Under the pieces are notes generated by a model. That model saw nothing but the letters and a program-made list of their open reading frames with translations. It ran no database searches and had not been told where the DNA came from. DNA of 64,000 bases from a virus, in the IMG/VR virus record IMGVR_UViG_3300043446_004967, positions 32,001 to 96,000 of that record. One strand, given 5' to 3'. This document shows, one piece after another, positions 9,390-64,000 of this stretch. Each line of letters begins with the position of its first letter. Position 1 is the stretch's first letter. Made by a program: the position numbers and the translations under genes.

Positions 9390-9480
9390 CGGGGACGGTA
9401 GGATTTGAACCTTCGACGCGGCTGCAACGCCGCGTAACGGTTTAGCAACCCGCCGCCTTAAGCCGCTCGGCCAATTCTCC
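9390..9480 (-). tRNA. tRNA-Ser(GCT), degenerate or chimeric
   Basis: Minus strand: TGGCCGAGCGGCTTAAGGC D-arm, TT-GCT-AA loop, long variable arm, GGTTCAAATCC; 3 acceptor-stem mismatches; no CCA. Confidence 0.7.
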
Positions 9481-9683
9481 CTCTGATAATCCCGCCCTTT
9501 TTTAAGGGGCGGGACCGATCTACCGGATCGAGGGTAATGCTAACAATAGGCGACGACGTCGTCAAGCCTAAAAAACGGGGAGTACGCCATTCCCCCTTAC
9601 AGTGCGCCCTTTCTTCGCGCCTCTAAATAAGGCAAGACTAACCCCCCGTGCCGACGGCTACCGCCGCAACGCTCAGAGCCATG

Positions 9684-57624: not shown

Positions 57625-57837
57625 AATCCTCTCCGGGGAATAAGCTCCATGAAAACCCCACAGAAGCCCATGATAGGGAGCCGCTGAGGGGGGCTAAGCG
57701 GTAAGTCTTAGCCGCCGAGCGGCTTCCTGTCAAGGGTGCCCCCCTCTAGCGCGGAGAAAAAAGAACGTGGTGTTTTCTCCTTTTTGCACCGTCGTTGGTT
57801 ACGTTTCTTTTCTCTCCGCGCGTTGAGTAATCCTGCC

Positions 57838-58748
57838 ATGCCCTCCCCTTTTACATTCATTGACCTGTGCGCCGGCATAGGCGGTATGCGCATTCCTTTT
57901 GGCGCACTTGGCGGGGAATGTGTTTTTTCTTCCGAGATAGACCCGCATTGTCAACGGGTGTATGCGGCGAACTTTGGGGAGTCCCCCTTTGGCGACATTA
58001 CCTCCTTGTCGCCTGACGCCGTGCCGGACCATGACCTTTTATTGGCCGGGTTTCCTTGCCAAGCTTTCAGCGTTATTGGACGGCAGTTAGGGTTTTCCGA
58101 TACGCGCGGGACGCTCTTTTTTAGTATTGCGCAGATTCTCCAAGCCAAACGACCACGCGCCTTTCTGTTAGAGAACGTTAAACAGCTCCGGACACACGAT
58201 GAGGGCCGCACTTTTTTGACGATCCTCCGCACGTTGGAAGGCTTAGGTTACGTGGTGTATCACACCGTGCTCAATTCTCTGGATTTCGGGGTTCCCCAGA
58301 AAAGAGAACGCACCTACATTGTGGGGCTTTTGGGCGGCGGCGCCTTTTCCTTTCCGTCGAAAAAAACGGACTACGATCTGTCGTCCGTGCTGGAACCCGA
58401 GAACGGCGTAGGTTCAAAGTATTTCGCCTCTGAGCATATTCGAGTTAGCCGACGTGAGCGGGTAGGTTTCGTGCCTTCCGGCCCCTCCGTCTGGCATGAG
58501 AATAAGAGCGGAAACGTGTCAGCCCTGCCCTGCCCTATTCTTGCGCGCTGCGGGCGTATGCGTCTTATAATTATCTGTTGGTCAACGGGGAGCGCAGGTT
58601 CACCGAAAGGGAGCTGCTTCGCTTACAGGGGTTCCCCGAGCACTTTGAGGCCCCCGTAAGCTATGGTCATGTACGAAGGCAAACCGGCAATGCCGTTACG
58701 GTGACGGTAATTCAGGCGATTGCCGGCCCTCTGGTCGCCGCTCTTTAG
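57838..58748 (+). pseudogene. C5-cytosine MTase frameshifted at (GCCCT)3
   Basis: Motifs I-VIII in one frame; LQGFP and GNAV in another after 58536. Confidence 0.88.
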
Positions 58749-59428: not shown

Positions 59429-60274
59429 TCAGCTTTTCGCGTTTTGGGGAAAATTAAACCCTGAGCTTCGCCAGATTTCGCTGACCGGGCGGTTTCCGTT
59501 ATAATCTTCCATCACCCTCGGCAAGTCGCTTATCTTGCGCACGATAGCAAAGGGTTTTCCTTCGCTGTACTCCCGTCTAAAGAAGACTACTTCCTCCGGT
59601 TCCGCGTAGAACAAAGAGTCAGGTTGGTATATCGTGGCGATCTTCTGCACCTCTCGGTCCGCCTGCACTTCCGCGTGTAACGTTTCCCTTAGACAAATCT
59701 GATCGGCAGGGTAAACCCCTCGTTCGATGTTCTCCGTCATCTGCAAGGCGCCGCCGCTAGGCAACAGGAACCGCAACGCCGCATACGATTCTTCGTCCGT
59801 GTCTCGCAGGCGTGTCGCTAGAGGTACGTCCTTTTCACTTATGCTTAGGGTTTTCGCGCGTGGTTGCGGGCGCTCCGTAGACGAAACGATCTCCGATAGG
59901 GTCTCCTCCACCACAAAAGTTCCCCCCTCCCACACAATCTTTATGAGATAGATGTGTTTCTTCCGTTGAGGGAGGGCAGGATCATACGGGTCGAGCGTTT
60001 CTAGTATCAGAGAAATATGCGTGCTCCGCGCGCGGCGCGTCTCGCCAAATCCTCTTAAGTTGGCGAAGGACACCATGCCGGCTTCGCCTCCTCGTTCTTT
60101 TACAAGCTCTACCGCAGATCGCCCGGAGGCCAAACTTTGTGCAAACTTGATCGCGTCGAGCAAGGTGGACTTGCCTGTGCCCGTGTCCCCGACTAAGAAG
60201 ATCAGCCTAGGAAGGTGCTGCAATGAGGTATTCGCGTGAAGCCTGTAGTTGTACAGGCCGAGGGAAACTATCAT
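59429..60274 (-). CDS. Degenerate, internally shortened AAA_21-type ABC ATPase
   Basis: GDTGTGKSTLLDA; ENIERGVYP in place of EEPENGLHP; H-loop eroded. Confidence 0.7.
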   Translation of the reverse strand: MIVSLGLYNYRLHANTSLQHLPRLIFLVGDTGTGKSTLLDAIKFAQSLASGRSAVELVKERGGEAGMVSFANLRGFGETRRARSTHISLILETLDPYDPALPQRKKHIYLIKIVWEGGTFVVEETLSEIVSSTERPQPRAKTLSISEKDVPLATRLRDTDEESYAALRFLLPSGGALQMTENIERGVYPADQICLRETLHAEVQADREVQKIATIYQPDSLFYAEPEEVVFFRREYSEGKPFAIVRKISDLPRVMEDYNGNRPVSEIWRSSGFNFPQNAKS

Positions 60275-60745: not shown

Positions 60746-61060
60746 TTATCTCCACAGTGATATACCTTGTATTTTTTGCTGTTGGATTACAGTGATTTCT
60801 TTATCTACCGCGTCTTCATAGGACATAAAGTACGCGGTTTTTCCGTTTTCAGTGTAGACACCGTTGGGCCATAGAGCCTTCAGCTTATCGTCCTGAAACT
60901 GGATATAGAATTTTTGTGCCTGTTGACAAAAGAGTATTTCGCTTACTCTTTTGACGTTCCTTGTTCCATGCACCGGCGGTTTAAAGAACCCGTCCTTTAA
61001 GAGGTGCTCGCAATCACCTCCGGGAAGGATACGTAAAACCATTCGTTTCACGACGCGCAT
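60746..61060 (-). CDS. Conserved phage protein downstream of DUF2997
   Basis: VKRVSEI..F..YEDAV.KE pattern; context. Confidence 0.6.
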   Translation of the reverse strand: MRVVKRMVLRILPGGDCEHLLKDGFFKPPVHGTRNVKRVSEILFCQQAQKFYIQFQDDKLKALWPNGVYTENGKTAYFMSYEDAVDKEITVIQQQKIQGISLWR

Positions 61061-61260
61061 CCCGCCTTTACGGTTTCCGTGGAGGTCTGGGTCTGGTACA
61101 TCTCCGGTTTTTCCTGCGCGTCTGTTTGTGCCCCTGAAACATATTTTAGCGCGGCTTCCGTCGCAGCCTTGCAGCCTACCCCTTGGAAGTTTTGTGCGTC
61201 CACTTGGACGTGTTGCCCGTTCGGGCTGACTGTGATTACCAATCTCTTTCCTGCGGTCAT
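61048..61260 (-). CDS. DUF2997-like protein
   Basis: ITVSPNG..V.AQNFQG.GC..AT..KPEMY. Confidence 0.75.
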   Translation of the reverse strand: MTAGKRLVITVSPNGQHVQVDAQNFQGVGCKAATEAALKYVSGAQTDAQEKPEMYQTQTSTETVKAGCAS

Positions 61261-61299: not shown

Positions 61300-61375
61300 T
61301 GGTTCTCCGGACAGGATTTGAACCTATGACCCGGGCGTTATGAGCGCCTTGCTCTAACCTCTGAGCTACCGGAGA
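61300..61375 (-). tRNA. tRNA with CAT anticodon (likely Ile2), CCA encoded
   Basis: Full cloverleaf; CT-CAT-AA loop; C4-G69 and C5-G68. Confidence 0.88.
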
Positions 61376-61455: not shown

Positions 61456-63474
61456 TTAGCGGGTTTTGTCGCCCGCGTCAACCGGCGCGGGCTTCGGCGT
61501 TTCAGTTTTGCCTAGCCCTGCGGCGATGCGCTCCATCTCTAAAAAAGCATGGTAGGCGACGTTATCGCTAAACGGGGCGGTCAGCTCATCAAGCTCGGCG
61601 CTAAGCCTCGCTTTTTCCTCCTCCGAGGCGTCTTTTCCTTGTTTTAGAATCTCATAATATTGTTGGGCCGCTTCCTTCATCGCTTGGCGGCGTTTGCTCA
61701 TTTGCGGCAGTCCCACACCCATCACGTCTTCGAGGATGTCTTCGATGGGTTTATCCCAGTATTCGCCTCCTGTAGGGTACGGGTAGGCGCAGCCTGTCTC
61801 GATGTGGCGCCCCTCGCAGGTACGATTGTCCTCATGATTGACCTCCTCGTCCCACTTTCTTTTAGCAAGGTCCGACTGCCCGCGCAGTTCATGGGCCGCA
61901 TAGACGGCAGCTTGATGGCTAAGCTGGAGCGCGCGCGCCTCCAGCTCCGTGCGCATCTGATGTCGTTCGGCCTCCGACGCAAATCCTCCGTGGTCTAAGC
62001 GGCGGTAGTATTCCTCCGAAACGTCGGCTAGTTTTTGCCGAAGCGCGCTTACTTTCGGCGTCGGTACACCCATAACTTCTTCCGCGATAGCCTCGATAGA
62101 CTCGTCGGCATACACACCGCCGGAAGGTTGAGGGTAGGCAATGCCTTTTCTACAGGAGTAAGGCACGTCCGGATCGTCGTCCTCGTGCTCCCGCTCCTCA
62201 AAATTTTCCTCGGAAGTGGGTTGCGGTTCTTCTTCTCTCGCGTCAGGAATCCCCGCAGCGTATCTTTTCATTTTGAGGAAGGCTATCTCTCCCGGGTAAT
62301 CTTTGAACGAGGCGCACAGCCTATCCAGCTCCGCTCCGACGGCCATTTTTTCCTCCTCCGAGAGGGGTTTAACCTTTTCCGCAAGTGTTAGGTACTGAAG
62401 CGCGGTTGCCCTTAGCTTCACTTGCCGCGCGCTTACTTGCGGCAGCCCTATCCCCATGAAGTCTTCGACGATATCCTCTATGGAATACGCGGAAGGGTCT
62501 TCTTCGCGTCTTTCCAGTCGCGTCACGTCGATTGCTTGGCCCGCCGTAAGGGATTGCAGGATAAACGGCGAGTGCCCCGTCGCAATAAATTGAACAGCGG
62601 GGAAAGCTTCTTGCAGCGCGCTCACAATGGTGCGCTGCTCTAAAGGGTGCAGCGAGGTCTCTAGGTCTTCGATCAGAACTACGCCCGGCGTAATCTCTAC
62701 AGCTCGTGCGCCCGCGTGGGGGTTTAACCACGCCGCGCGACAAGCTAGGTCTAGCGCTATGGTTAAAACGCTCCTTAACCCTCCCCCTAGCCTGCTAAGA
62801 GGGAACCAGCCCGACGCTTTAAGCTTTACGATAATTTCGGGCGTACCCTCTCGGATCTCCATCACGCGAAGGTCTTCGCACTCCGGCACGCATTGCCTGA
62901 CTGCCGTTAATGCGGCGCCCCATGCCGCCGCTATGTCCGGGTAGGCGGAGCTAGGCATTCCCTGTAGGAGGGAGAGTAAAAGGGCCACGGTGGTCTTCTT
63001 TTTATGGAACGGTAAACAGCCGTCGTATGCCTTAGTATAGGGAGGTACCCCCGGCCTTCCCAGTTTTTTTCGCTTGGGCAAAGTGAACGTACCCGGAGCC
63101 GTCCGATAGGTTCCGTACCATGCAATAACAGGCCGGGTTTCCCGCCTGTCGTCCGTCGGCGCGGCTGCGACTAGCGCAGAGGACGGCGCCAAGGATAAAT
63201 CCCAACGAAGACGTTGTCCCTTTACGTAGACGCGCGCCTTCATAGCCGTGTGGGGGTCCGTCGGCACGGTATAGCGGGTCTCCCCCGCGCATCCGCACAG
63301 GTCGGCAAGCAAATAGGATACGGCGTCGAGGACGGAGGTCTTCCCCGCGCCGTTACCCCCGATCAAGTAGTTAAACTGCGGGTGAAATACGATATCCGCT
63401 AAGGCTAATTGCCTAAACGAACGTAGCGATAACCGCTCTATTCTGAACTGATTTTTTGCGTCAGCCGTGCTCAT
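61456..63474 (-). CDS. PtuA/AAA_21-like ABC ATPase with triplicated C-terminal domain
   Basis: GGNGAGKT; GVVLIEDLETSLHP; GHSP; three 'IE.I.E..MG...P..S.R' repeats. Confidence 0.8.
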   Translation of the reverse strand: MSTADAKNQFRIERLSLRSFRQLALADIVFHPQFNYLIGGNGAGKTSVLDAVSYLLADLCGCAGETRYTVPTDPHTAMKARVYVKGQRLRWDLSLAPSSALVAAAPTDDRRETRPVIAWYGTYRTAPGTFTLPKRKKLGRPGVPPYTKAYDGCLPFHKKKTTVALLLSLLQGMPSSAYPDIAAAWGAALTAVRQCVPECEDLRVMEIREGTPEIIVKLKASGWFPLSRLGGGLRSVLTIALDLACRAAWLNPHAGARAVEITPGVVLIEDLETSLHPLEQRTIVSALQEAFPAVQFIATGHSPFILQSLTAGQAIDVTRLERREEDPSAYSIEDIVEDFMGIGLPQVSARQVKLRATALQYLTLAEKVKPLSEEEKMAVGAELDRLCASFKDYPGEIAFLKMKRYAAGIPDAREEEPQPTSEENFEEREHEDDDPDVPYSCRKGIAYPQPSGGVYADESIEAIAEEVMGVPTPKVSALRQKLADVSEEYYRRLDHGGFASEAERHQMRTELEARALQLSHQAAVYAAHELRGQSDLAKRKWDEEVNHEDNRTCEGRHIETGCAYPYPTGGEYWDKPIEDILEDVMGVGLPQMSKRRQAMKEAAQQYYEILKQGKDASEEEKARLSAELDELTAPFSDNVAYHAFLEMERIAAGLGKTETPKPAPVDAGDKTR

Positions 63475-63513
63475 ACACAGTATTCCTTATTCTGAAAAGG
63501 AGTTTTCTTATAG

Positions 63514-63542
63514 AAAAAGGCCGCTTTAGGGGCGGCCTTTTC
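63514..63542. terminator. Bidirectional intrinsic terminator
   Basis: AAAAAGGCCGC-ttagg-GCGGCCTTTT-type hairpin. Confidence 0.65.
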
Positions 63543-63569: not shown

Positions 63570-64000
63570 CTAATACCCCGTTTCCGCGTCGATGACAAGT
63601 TGGGTTACACCGTACTCGTCTACGAGACGGTCTAGTACGGTGTAGCCTTTTTCCTGTGCGCCCCGTATCGCGGCTTGCACCGTGTACTCCTGCATCAAGG
63701 GGTCCAACGGAGCCAAGCCTTTTGGGGTGCCTAGCGCCTTCTGGATAATACCGTCCCACGTATCTATGACGGGTACGTAGTAATCCAGCCCGTTTTCGTC
63801 CGTTTCCTTGTCCAGTGCAATGTTATATTTGCACCCCTCGATGTCAATTACATAGGGGCATTGCCTAGACTGACTCGCGTAGTAGGCACGATAAGTGCCG
63901 TTTTCCGTCAACGAGAGGGGGGCAGCCCCTTGGCGTTGGCTCAGCTGGGCAAGCGCTGACCGGAGGTCATTAATGTCAGTAATCTTGACACCGGTTACTT
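63570..64000 (-). CDS. DUF1257-like protein, 5' end outside window
   Basis: Frame open to the window edge (VKITDINDLRSA); LMQEY..A..KGY motif. Confidence 0.65.
   Translation of the reverse strand, partial: VTGVKITDINDLRSALAQLSQRQGAAPLSLTENGTYRAYYASQSRQCPYVIDIEGCKYNIALDKETDENGLDYYVPVIDTWDGIIQKALGTPKGLAPLDPLMQEYTVQAAIRGAQEKGYTVLDRLVDEYGVTQLVIDAETGY

What the first reader, a model, noticed from the sequence alone, without database searches (positions are those of the whole stretch)
61456..63474. PtuA-like ATPase with swapped Walker B and a triplicated C-terminal module (decoy candidate 3)
It resembles Septu/retron-type ATPases that pair with an HNH nuclease, but IDE reads IED, LSDG reads LGGG, and no HNH gene is adjacent. 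The C-terminal module (IE.I.E..MG...P..S.R...A..Y) occurs three times. Amplifying a probable partner-binding module on a crippled ATPase is what a multivalent effector sponge would look like.
Basis: partly seen in the sequence, partly recalled or inferred. Interest (0 to 1): 0.8.

Follow-up and report, generated by a model that had tools for sequence, protein, structure and literature searches.

The report
Orphan phage PtuA with tripled tail
A complete 111-kb phage genome carries a lone copy of the bacterial Septu defence ATPase PtuA whose catalytic motifs are altered and whose nuclease-docking tail is present three times, so it is a strong but untested candidate for a phage protein that disarms Septu by mimicking one of its own parts.

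Summary
Window 61456-63474 (-) encodes a 672-aa protein whose first ~410 residues are a complete PtuA (PADLOC PDLC00278 E 1e-86; model aligns to E. coli Septu PtuA 8eea_D, Z 32). Two more copies of the C-terminal module follow on disordered acidic linkers.

In solved PtuAB complexes this module is the element that docks the PtuB nuclease.

- In 78 cellular relatives, all have Walker B LIDE..LHL and one module. All or nearly all read LSDG. 76 have PtuB immediately downstream.
- The phage clade (7 sequences) reads LGGG and LIEDLE(T/V)(S/C)LHP. This replaces residues whose mutation abolishes defence in Retron-Eco7.
- The genome ends in an exact 127-bp repeat, so it is complete. It has no PtuB, HNH or reverse transcriptase.
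- A search of 1.84 billion representative proteins found multi-module tails only in this phage clade.
- The last module matches cellular tails as well as they match each other (56% identity, 33/36 conserved positions). The ATPase domain has drifted to 32%.

Best reading (about 0.5): a PtuA-derived anti-Septu protein that captures PtuB or poisons PtuA-PtuB assembly. Single-module relatives exist, and modules 1 and 2 are divergent. The scan's first readers noted this same stretch twice on this genome, not on other DNA.

The parts
61456..63474 (-). Whole gene: 672-aa orphan PtuA-like protein (P0001)
   Evidence: ORF and translation; PADLOC PtuA PDLC00278 E 1.1e-86; full-length homolog P0002 at 68% identity.
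62515..63474 (-). ABC/SMC-head type ATPase domain (aa 1-320)
   Evidence: Pfam AAA_21, AAA_15 and SMC_N. AF2 pLDDT is mostly above 90. VIA-align Z 32 to PtuA chains, against 17.6 or less for SMC/Rad50 heads.
63334..63360 (-). Walker A GGNGAGKTS (aa 39-47), intact
   Evidence: G39, N41, G44 and K45 are identical to columns that are 100% conserved in cellular relatives.
62779..62790 (-). Signature motif reading LGGG instead of LSDG (aa 229-232)
   Evidence: S230G and D231G occur in all 7 phage-clade sequences. Cellular relatives have S in 100% and D in 96%.
62644..62682 (-). Walker B / D-loop reading VVLIEDLETSLHP (aa 265-277)
   Evidence: D269E, E270D, D272E, L273T/V and H274S/C are fixed in the phage clade, at columns 99-100% conserved in cellular relatives. 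The equivalents of E396 and H400 are essential in Retron-Eco7 PtuA (PMC12673091).
62245..62484 (-). Module R1 (aa 331-410): C-terminal extension in the canonical position
   Evidence: Model residues 10-410 align to the whole of 8eea_D, residues 1-460. pLDDT is 86-89. It keeps 25/36 conserved tail positions.
62101..62244 (-). Acidic disordered linker 1 (aa 411-458)
   Evidence: pLDDT below 50 over residues 415-458. It has 16 D+E in 48 residues.
61837..62100 (-). Module R2 (aa 459-546): most divergent copy
   Evidence: 40% identity to R3, E 8e-21. It keeps 16/36 conserved positions. It nests inside the phage R3 clade with support 1.0.
61750..61836 (-). Linker 2 (aa 547-575)
   Evidence: pLDDT below 50 over residues 546-592.
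61510..61749 (-). Module R3 (aa 576-655): near-canonical cellular-type tail
   Evidence: 33/36 conserved positions. Median identity to 78 cellular tails is 56%, against 32% for the ATPase domain. It is 81% identical between P0001 and P0079.
63484..63488 (-). Shine-Dalgarno-like AAGGA, 9 nt before the ATG
   Evidence: Read directly from the sequence.
63511..63540 (-). Hairpin plus T-run (terminator-like) after the upstream gene
   Evidence: Read directly from the sequence. The consensus scan did not list it.

Best explanation
The gene encodes a phage-made derivative of the Septu scaffold ATPase PtuA that interferes with the host's Septu (PtuA-PtuB) defence.

In cells, a PtuA dimer holds one PtuB HNH nuclease by sandwiching its helical C-terminal domain between two PtuA C-terminal extensions. 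The phage protein keeps a PtuA body whose ATP site can probably still bind nucleotide. That body has lost the Walker B, D-loop and signature residues needed for hydrolysis and for the ATP-dependent switch. It displays three such extensions on flexible acidic linkers.

I infer that these extensions capture host PtuB, or slot into host PtuA-PtuB assemblies as a poison subunit. The nuclease would then be held in complexes that cannot be activated or released.

Shown here:
- homology and fold;
- motif changes fixed across the clade;
- orphan status in a complete genome;
- tripling found only in this clade;
- cellular-level conservation of the last module.

Inferred, not shown: binding to PtuB or PtuA, loss of ATPase activity, and any effect on defence.
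For: 1. The repeated module is the PtuB-docking element. PMC12819146 section 9 and PMC12673091 describe a pair of PtuA C-terminal extensions sandwiching the PtuB C-terminal domain in a nine-helix bundle, and the extension is critical for toxicity. Model residues 10-410 (ATPase plus R1) align to whole Septu PtuA 8eea_D, Z 32.1. The start of R3 aligns to 8ee4 residues 380-410.

2. Cellular relatives are true Septu systems. 76 of 78 have PtuB (PDLC00315, Pfam HNH) immediately downstream.

3. The phage genome is complete, with an exact 127-bp terminal repeat. It has no PtuB, HNH or reverse transcriptase.

4. Columns invariant in cellular relatives are changed in all 7 phage-clade sequences: S230G, D231G, D269E, E270D, D272E, H274S/C. 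E396A, E396Q and H400A at the equivalent Retron-Eco7 positions abolish defence.

5. Conservation is asymmetric. For phage versus cell, the ATPase domain is 32% identical and R3 is 56%. For cell versus cell, the figures are 48% and 57%. No cell-cell pair with a tail identity of 52-62% has an ATPase identity below 38.5%. R3 keeps 33/36 conserved positions.

6. Multi-module tails were found only in this phage clade among 1.84 billion representatives.

7. Viral contigs that carry Septu as a system (L002, L003, L005) keep canonical motifs and PtuB.

8. There is a precedent for an inhibitor derived from a defence subunit: AcrIB4, a Cas8b/Cas11 homolog predicted to act by subunit poisoning.
Against: - There is no binding, expression or phenotype evidence.
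- The host is unknown, so it is unknown whether it carries this Septu subtype.
- The ATPase domain is strongly conserved within the phage clade (82% between P0001 and P0079), with Walker A and the H-loop intact. That is more than a passive scaffold would seem to need.
- Stand-alone E. coli Septu PtuAB is reported to lack ATPase activity despite canonical motifs. Motif loss is therefore a weaker argument than it looks.
- R1 and R2 evolve about three times faster than R3, at about the same rate as the linkers (55-61% identity).
- A close relative, P0002, has a 44-aa deletion at the R2/R3 junction, and single-module forms exist. Multivalency may therefore not be under strong selection.
- The high conservation of R3 could reflect folding or self-association needs of the module rather than PtuB contact.
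Confidence: 0.5

Rival explanations
1. A phage-owned ATPase with a job unrelated to blocking Septu. Examples are a superinfection-exclusion or defence sensor with a new, non-HNH partner, or a DNA-metabolism factor in the replication module. The extra tails would serve self-assembly or recruit phage proteins.
For: - The ATPase domain is well conserved in the clade, with Walker A and the H-loop intact.
- The gene lies among replication and nucleotide-metabolism genes: DnaB-like helicase, dCMP deaminase, C5 methylase.
- Another viral contig (L004) carries an orphan PtuA ATPase domain with canonical motifs, no tail and no PtuB. Orphan phage PtuA-like ATPases are therefore not all tail-bearing.
Against: - No nuclease or other recognisable effector is adjacent.
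- Residues needed for PtuA function in defence are replaced.
- This reading does not explain why R3 stays pinned to the cellular tail consensus while the rest drifts.
Confidence: 0.25
2. A self-satisfied PtuA. The three tails of one chain, or six of a dimer, pack together into the helical bundle that normally needs PtuB. They would stabilise a PtuB-independent assembly, and the extra modules would mimic the PtuB C-terminal domain rather than bind it.
For: - The native bundle has nine helices, three from each of three elements.
- Each module here is predicted as a short helix plus three helices, joined by long flexible linkers that would allow back-folding.
Against: - The extra modules are homologous to the PtuA tail, not to the PtuB C-terminal domain. 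The PtuB HMM finds nothing in the genome.
- Single-module clade members would lack this arrangement.
- No coordinates or contact map were available to test packing.
Confidence: 0.12
3. A decaying remnant of a captured Septu operon that lost PtuB, with no current function.
For: - The gene is orphan and has altered catalytic motifs.
- R1 and R2 evolve fast, and there are indels in the tail region among relatives.
Against: - Seven sequences in four 90%-identity clusters (those of P0001/P0003, P0002, P0004 and P0005) keep full open frames.
- All seven carry the same substitutions.
- The ATPase domain is 82% and R3 81% identical between P0001 and P0079.
- Duplicated modules are retained without gaps between P0001 and P0079.
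Confidence: 0.08

Closest known systems
Septu PtuA (E. coli PtuA/PtuAB, PDB 8ee4, 8eea, 8sux; PADLOC PDLC00278 and PDLC00267 subfamily)
   Same: - Same fold and domain order: ABC/SMC-head ATPase followed by a three-helix C-terminal extension. Z 32.1 to 8eea_D over model residues 10-410; HMM E 1e-86.
- Walker A and the H-loop are retained.
- The last tail module is 56% identical to cellular tails.
   Different: - It is encoded by a phage and has no PtuB anywhere in the genome.
- Walker B reads ED instead of DE, the signature reads LGGG instead of LSDG, and the D-loop His is replaced.
- It has three tails instead of one.
- Several ATPase-domain segments are shortened relative to cellular relatives.
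Retron type I-A (Ec78/Eco7, Ec83) PtuA
   Same: It has the same ATPase fold, Z 30-33. The PtuB-docking principle through the C-terminal domain is the same.
   Different: - The genome has no reverse transcriptase.
- The match to the retron ATPase_I-A profile is weaker, E 5e-35.
- In the aligned ranges the retron chains start at about residue 37-62, so the roughly 50-60-residue N-terminal extension of retron PtuA has no counterpart here. The coiled-coil flap of retron PtuA was not examined.
AcrIB4 (phage anti-CRISPR homologous to the Cas8b C-terminus/Cas11; predicted subunit poisoning)
   Same: The concept is the same: a phage protein derived from a subunit of the defence complex is proposed to compete for that subunit's place.
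   Different: It targets a different defence system and has a different fold. AcrIB4 is a small single-domain protein, whereas this is a full-size ATPase with a multiplied docking module. For both, the mechanism is predicted rather than solved.
Known anti-Septu measures: phage tRNA-Tyr supply and SegB-driven tRNA amplification; the proteins Anhur and Svarog
   Same: They would have the same target system.
   Different: These act by replacing the cleaved tRNA, or by unknown mechanisms. No direct contact with PtuA or PtuB has been reported for Anhur or Svarog. None is described as a PtuA homolog.

Membership tests
PtuA protein family (Septu ATPase) | Significant match to PtuA profiles | tested here: met
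   PDLC00278 E 1.1e-86; PDLC00267 E 1.8e-85.
PtuA protein family (Septu ATPase) | PtuA three-dimensional fold, including the C-terminal extension | tested here: met
   AF2 model (pLDDT 75 overall, above 90 in the ATPase domain) aligns to 8eea_D residues 1-460 with Z 32.1, rmsd 4.6 over 375 residues.
PtuA protein family (Septu ATPase) | Walker A GxxGxGK[ST] | tested here: met
   GGNGAGKTS at aa 39-47.
PtuA protein family (Septu ATPase) | Walker B hhhhDE followed by the D-loop and His (LIDExDLHLHP) | tested here: not met
   The protein reads LIEDLETSLHP. D and E are 100% conserved in 78 cellular relatives.
PtuA protein family (Septu ATPase) | Signature motif LSDG | tested here: not met
   The protein reads LGGG.
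Septu defence system (PtuA + PtuB operon) | HNH nuclease PtuB encoded next to PtuA | tested here: not met
   The complete genome has no PDLC00315 match, no PF01844 match, no tblastn hit and no PtuB-HMM hit. By contrast, 76/78 cellular loci have PtuB directly downstream.
Septu defence system (PtuA + PtuB operon) | Protects the carrier against phage | not testable with these tools
   Needs a plaque assay.
Retron type I-A effector module | Adjacent reverse transcriptase and ncRNA | tested here: not met
   The genome has no RVT_1 match at E<=1. The ncRNA was not searched.
Phage anti-defence proteins acting as decoys or poison subunits | Physical binding to a component of the defence system | not tested
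No experiment was possible.
Phage anti-defence proteins acting as decoys or poison subunits | Phage-encoded homolog of a defence subunit that lacks the system's effector and its activity-critical residues | tested here: met

The most novel reading that the evidence does not exclude
The protein is a multivalent PtuB sponge built from the defence system's own scaffold. Each of the three tails, alone or in pairs, traps a host PtuB nuclease. The fast-evolving R1 and R2 may broaden the range of PtuB variants covered. The rewired ATP site disables the release switch, so captured nuclease is never freed. This would be the first anti-Septu protein with a direct mechanism, and the first case of a phage amplifying an effector-docking module of a defence scaffold.
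Probability: 0.3. Interest if true: 0.85.

Novelty: new variant of a known kind. Interest (0 to 1): 0.68.

Why it matters
Septu and the related retron I-A effectors are widespread. The known phage escapes are indirect (extra tRNA) or mechanistically unexplained (Anhur, Svarog).

A PtuA-derived inhibitor would show that phages can turn a defence scaffold against its own nuclease. It would give a ready tool to switch Septu and PtuAB-retron effectors off. It would also offer a simple search rule for more anti-defence genes: an orphan phage homolog of a defence subunit, with the binding module conserved and the catalytic motifs rewired.

The claim is directly testable with standard co-expression, pull-down and plaque assays.

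Tried and rejected
The contigs encoding the clade members P0002, P0079, P0004, P0081 and P0005 could not be fetched, so their synteny is unknown.
The planned co-fold of tail residues 320-672 (A3) with PtuB (A4) was not run.
There are no environment or expression data.

**Searches for close relatives that found nothing useful**
- IMG/VR with P0001, P0004 and the neighbouring AAA+ gene gave nothing.
- JGI metagenome scans with A2 and P0004 gave nothing.
- GenBank phages gave no match by DNA and only distant ATPase-domain matches by protein, covering at most 49% of the query.

**Stand-alone tail-only mini-proteins**
- Proteins such as P0086, P0103 and P0143 looked like possible mini-decoys.
- Most, including those three, are single-member clusters. 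One is a hypothetical protein of Endozoicomonas.
- No viral loci were found for them. I treat them as probable gene fragments.

**Origin of the single-module forms**
- I considered that they derive from a multi-module ancestor by deletion. P0004 keeps a vestige resembling the start of R1.
- The match lies in acidic low-complexity sequence, so the direction of change is left open.

**Module tree**
- The placement of R1 is unresolved because of a long branch (support 0.42).
- Only the nesting of R2 inside the phage R3 clade is supported.

**Truncated public gene call**
- The IMG call P0003 starts at V284. I rejected it as an artefact, because the upstream 283 residues are homologous to the PtuA ATPase domain.
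Full report
**What is there**

Window 61456-63474 (-) is one open frame of 672 codons. An AAGGA ribosome-binding site lies 9 nt before the ATG. A hairpin-plus-T-run terminator belonging to the upstream gene lies before that.

The window is bases 32001-96000 of a 110,897-bp IMG/VR virus record. The ends of that record repeat exactly over 127 bp. This is the signature of a circular, complete assembly.

The protein matches PtuA profiles of the Septu defence system very strongly (PDLC00278 E 1.1e-86, four matched stretches). Its best sequence match among solved structures is E. coli Septu PtuA (8ee4, E 8e-25).

An AlphaFold2 model built on a 62-sequence alignment has mean pLDDT 75. The ATPase domain is above 90, R1 is 86-89, R2 is 70-82 and R3 is 65-81. 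The two linkers, 415-458 and 546-592, are below 50.

Residues 10-410 of the model align to the entire PtuA chain of the PtuAB complex: 8eea_D residues 1-460, Z 32.1, rmsd 4.6 Å over 375 residues. PtuA chains score Z 21-33. The next family, SMC/Rad50 heads, scores 17.6 or less. So the ATPase domain plus R1 is a complete PtuA. R2 and R3 are extra modules strung behind it on acidic, disordered linkers.

**The repeats**

| Pair | Identity | Length | E-value |
|---|---|---|---|
| R1 vs R3 | 47% | 88 aa | 6e-25 |
| R2 vs R3 | 40% | 87 aa | 8e-21 |
| R1 vs R2 | 35% | 54 aa | 4e-7 |

Each module is a short helix carrying the IEDI.E..MG motif followed by three helices; in R2 the last two are predicted as one long helix. 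No other gene in the genome carries this module.

**What the module does in known systems**

[quoted passage not shown] The two extensions of a PtuA dimer sandwich one PtuB in a nine-helix bundle. The extension is critical for toxicity (PMC12819146 section 9; PMC12673091). The tripled module is therefore the nuclease-docking element.

**Comparison with cellular relatives**

A scan of one genome per species returned 80 bacterial and archaeal loci. PtuA ORFs were extracted from 78 of them.
- All 78 are about 400-480 aa.
- All have Walker B LIDE(I/L/V)(D/E)(L/H)H(L/I), and none has more than one module by the motif count.
- All or nearly all read LSDG (S in 100%, D in 96%).
- 76 of 78 have a PtuB gene (PDLC00315 E about 1e-78; Pfam HNH) starting at or within a few bases of the PtuA stop.

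The phage genome differs on the partner gene.
- It has no PtuB by PADLOC profile, Pfam HNH, tblastn or a purpose-built PtuB HMM (best E 0.67).
- It has no reverse transcriptase.

Viral contigs that carry Septu as a system (L002, L003, L005) keep both genes and the canonical motifs.

**The phage clade**

Database searches found only a handful of close relatives, all from metagenomes.
- P0079 (676 aa) has three full modules.
- P0002 (632 aa) has three modules, with a 44-aa deletion at the R2/R3 junction.
- P0004, P0081, P0083 and P0005 (472-481 aa) have one module behind a long acidic linker.

All seven share the same departures from columns that are 96-100% conserved in cellular relatives:
- S230G and D231G in the signature;
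- D269E and E270D in Walker B;
- D272E, L273T/V and H274S/C in the D-loop region;
- a variable residue at W279.

Walker A and the H-loop are untouched.

In Retron-Eco7 PtuA, the Walker B glutamate E396 hydrogen-bonds H400 of the neighbouring protomer. E396A, E396Q and H400A abolish defence, and D395A dissociates the complex. By alignment, the phage clade has changed exactly these positions.

**Asymmetric conservation**

| Comparison | ATPase domain | Tail module |
|---|---|---|
| Phage vs 78 cellular relatives (median) | 32% | 56% (R3) |
| Cell vs cell (median) | 48% | 57% |

- Among 1,485 cell-cell pairs whose tails are 52-62% identical, none has an ATPase identity below 38.5%.
- Among the 31 cell-cell pairs with an ATPase identity of 26-34%, the tail never exceeds 47%.
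- R3 keeps 33 of 36 highly conserved tail positions, R1 keeps 25 and R2 keeps 16.

Between the two three-module proteins (P0001 and P0079), the ATPase domain is 82% identical and R3 is 81%. R1 is 61%, R2 is 55% and the linkers are about 61%. There are no gaps inside the modules.

In a module tree, R2 nests inside the phage R3/single-module clade (support 1.0). The R1 and R2 pairs from the two proteins each cluster together, so the tripling predates their split. R1 and R2 sit on branches about three times as long as that of R3. The placement of R1 is unresolved.

**Uniqueness**

A full HMMER search of 1.84 billion representative proteins with the tail (aa 320-672) gave 360 hits at E<=0.001.
- Only the window's own gene call and the P0002 and P0005 clusters score below 1e-30.
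- Apart from the window's own gene call and P0002, nearly all of the 150 listed hits match with a single stretch, aligned to R3, mostly at or near their C-terminus. Two are exceptions: P0128 is a 409-aa protein listed with two stretches but with a single tail, and one fragment carries the module internally.
- No cellular multi-module protein was seen among them.

**Interpretation**

That test came out negative.

The pattern has four parts:
- the gene is orphan in a complete phage genome;
- the effector-docking module is pinned to the cellular consensus and multiplied;
- activity-critical ATP-site residues are rewired but then conserved;
- flexible linkers join the modules.

This is what a PtuA-derived inhibitor of host Septu would look like. 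It could trap PtuB: a dimer would offer six tails where a host dimer offers two. It could instead enter host assemblies as a poison subunit.

The published Septu model has PtuAB or PtuB released when ATP falls. A rewired ATP site could plausibly disable that release, but this is my inference.

A conceptual precedent exists in AcrIB4, a Cas8b/Cas11 homolog predicted to poison Cascade. The known anti-Septu measures are tRNA supply and the proteins Anhur and Svarog, whose mechanisms are unknown. I found no report of a PtuA-like inhibitor.

**Cautions**

- The host is unknown.
- The strong conservation of the ATPase domain, with an intact P-loop, suggests an active role for it.
- Stand-alone Septu PtuAB is reported to lack ATPase activity even with canonical motifs.
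- Single-module clade members and the P0002 deletion show that three modules are not obligatory.
- R1 and R2 may be under weak constraint.

I therefore give the anti-Septu reading about 0.5. The rivals are a phage-autonomous ATPase function (0.25), a self-packing PtuB-independent assembly (0.12) and a functionless remnant (0.08).

**Verdict**

The protein is a new variant of a known kind: a PtuA-family protein that fails the catalytic-motif and partner tests for a working Septu system. If the reading is right, it is a new type of anti-defence protein. First-reader notes of this scan flagged the same stretch twice on this genome (e1-5990272) and a genome-wide 'disarmed host proteins' theme (e1-5990266). 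No look-alike on other DNA was on record.

Noticed in passing
window 61300-61375 (-): A tRNA-Met(CAT) gene lies 80 nt downstream of the PtuA-like gene. Position 1-72 is paired and the anticodon stem lacks the three G-C pairs of an initiator tRNA, so it is elongator-type or possibly tRNA-Ile2. Known escapes from Septu and retron PtuAB work by supplying tRNA (tRNA-Tyr), so the adjacency may or may not be meaningful. The only other tRNA in the genome is tRNA-Ser(GCT) at 9391-9481.
   Followed up: partly
window 61456-62625 (-): The public IMG gene call for this gene (P0003, 389 aa) starts at V284 and so hides the ATPase domain. The P0004 cluster likewise contains 272-aa truncated calls (P0080, P0082). 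Annotation-based screens would miss the PtuA identity.
   Followed up: partly
L004:7995-9077 (+), IMGVR_UViG_3300013233_000195 (100,623 bp): This is a different orphan: a 360-aa PtuA ATPase domain (PDLC00278 E 3e-116) with canonical LIDEIDLHL. The 17-kb locus has no C-terminal extension and no PtuB, and the gene sits among small unknown genes. It may be a second way for phages to carry a lone PtuA part.
   Followed up: partly
window 61048-61260 (-) and 63570-64000 (-); genome 96729-98654 (-): The PtuA-like gene and the tRNA sit between a gene with a weak DUF1257-like match (E 0.0037, below the Pfam cut-off) and a DUF2997 gene. Both lie downstream of a 641-aa classical AAA+ ATPase (phrog_8638). 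From memory, not tested here, DUF1257 and DUF2997 genes are usually adjacent, which would make the PtuA-like gene plus tRNA an insertion.
   Followed up: no
window 59429-60274 (-): A 281-aa ABC-type ATPase lies three genes downstream. Only its N-terminal Walker A region matches the ATPase profiles (AAA_23, AAA_29; PADLOC HEC-01A, PtuA and GajA N-termini).
   Followed up: no
window 57736-58659 (+): A C5 cytosine methylase of 307 aa. Its Pfam match covers only profile positions 1-165 of 324, so the C-terminal half of the enzyme may be missing or very divergent.
   Followed up: no
genome G000:C1 1-127 and 110771-110897; also 661 and 110288: The genome ends in an exact 127-bp terminal repeat, a typical assembler overlap of a circular contig. 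The first 25 bases also recur at genome positions 661 and 110288, so a repeated element lies near the junction.
   Followed up: no
proteins P0086, P0103, P0143 (metagenome and Endozoicomonas records): Small proteins of 120-135 aa consist of an unrelated N-terminus plus one PtuA-type C-terminal module. All are single-member clusters, so they are probably fragments. If real, they would be tail-only mini-proteins.
   Followed up: partly
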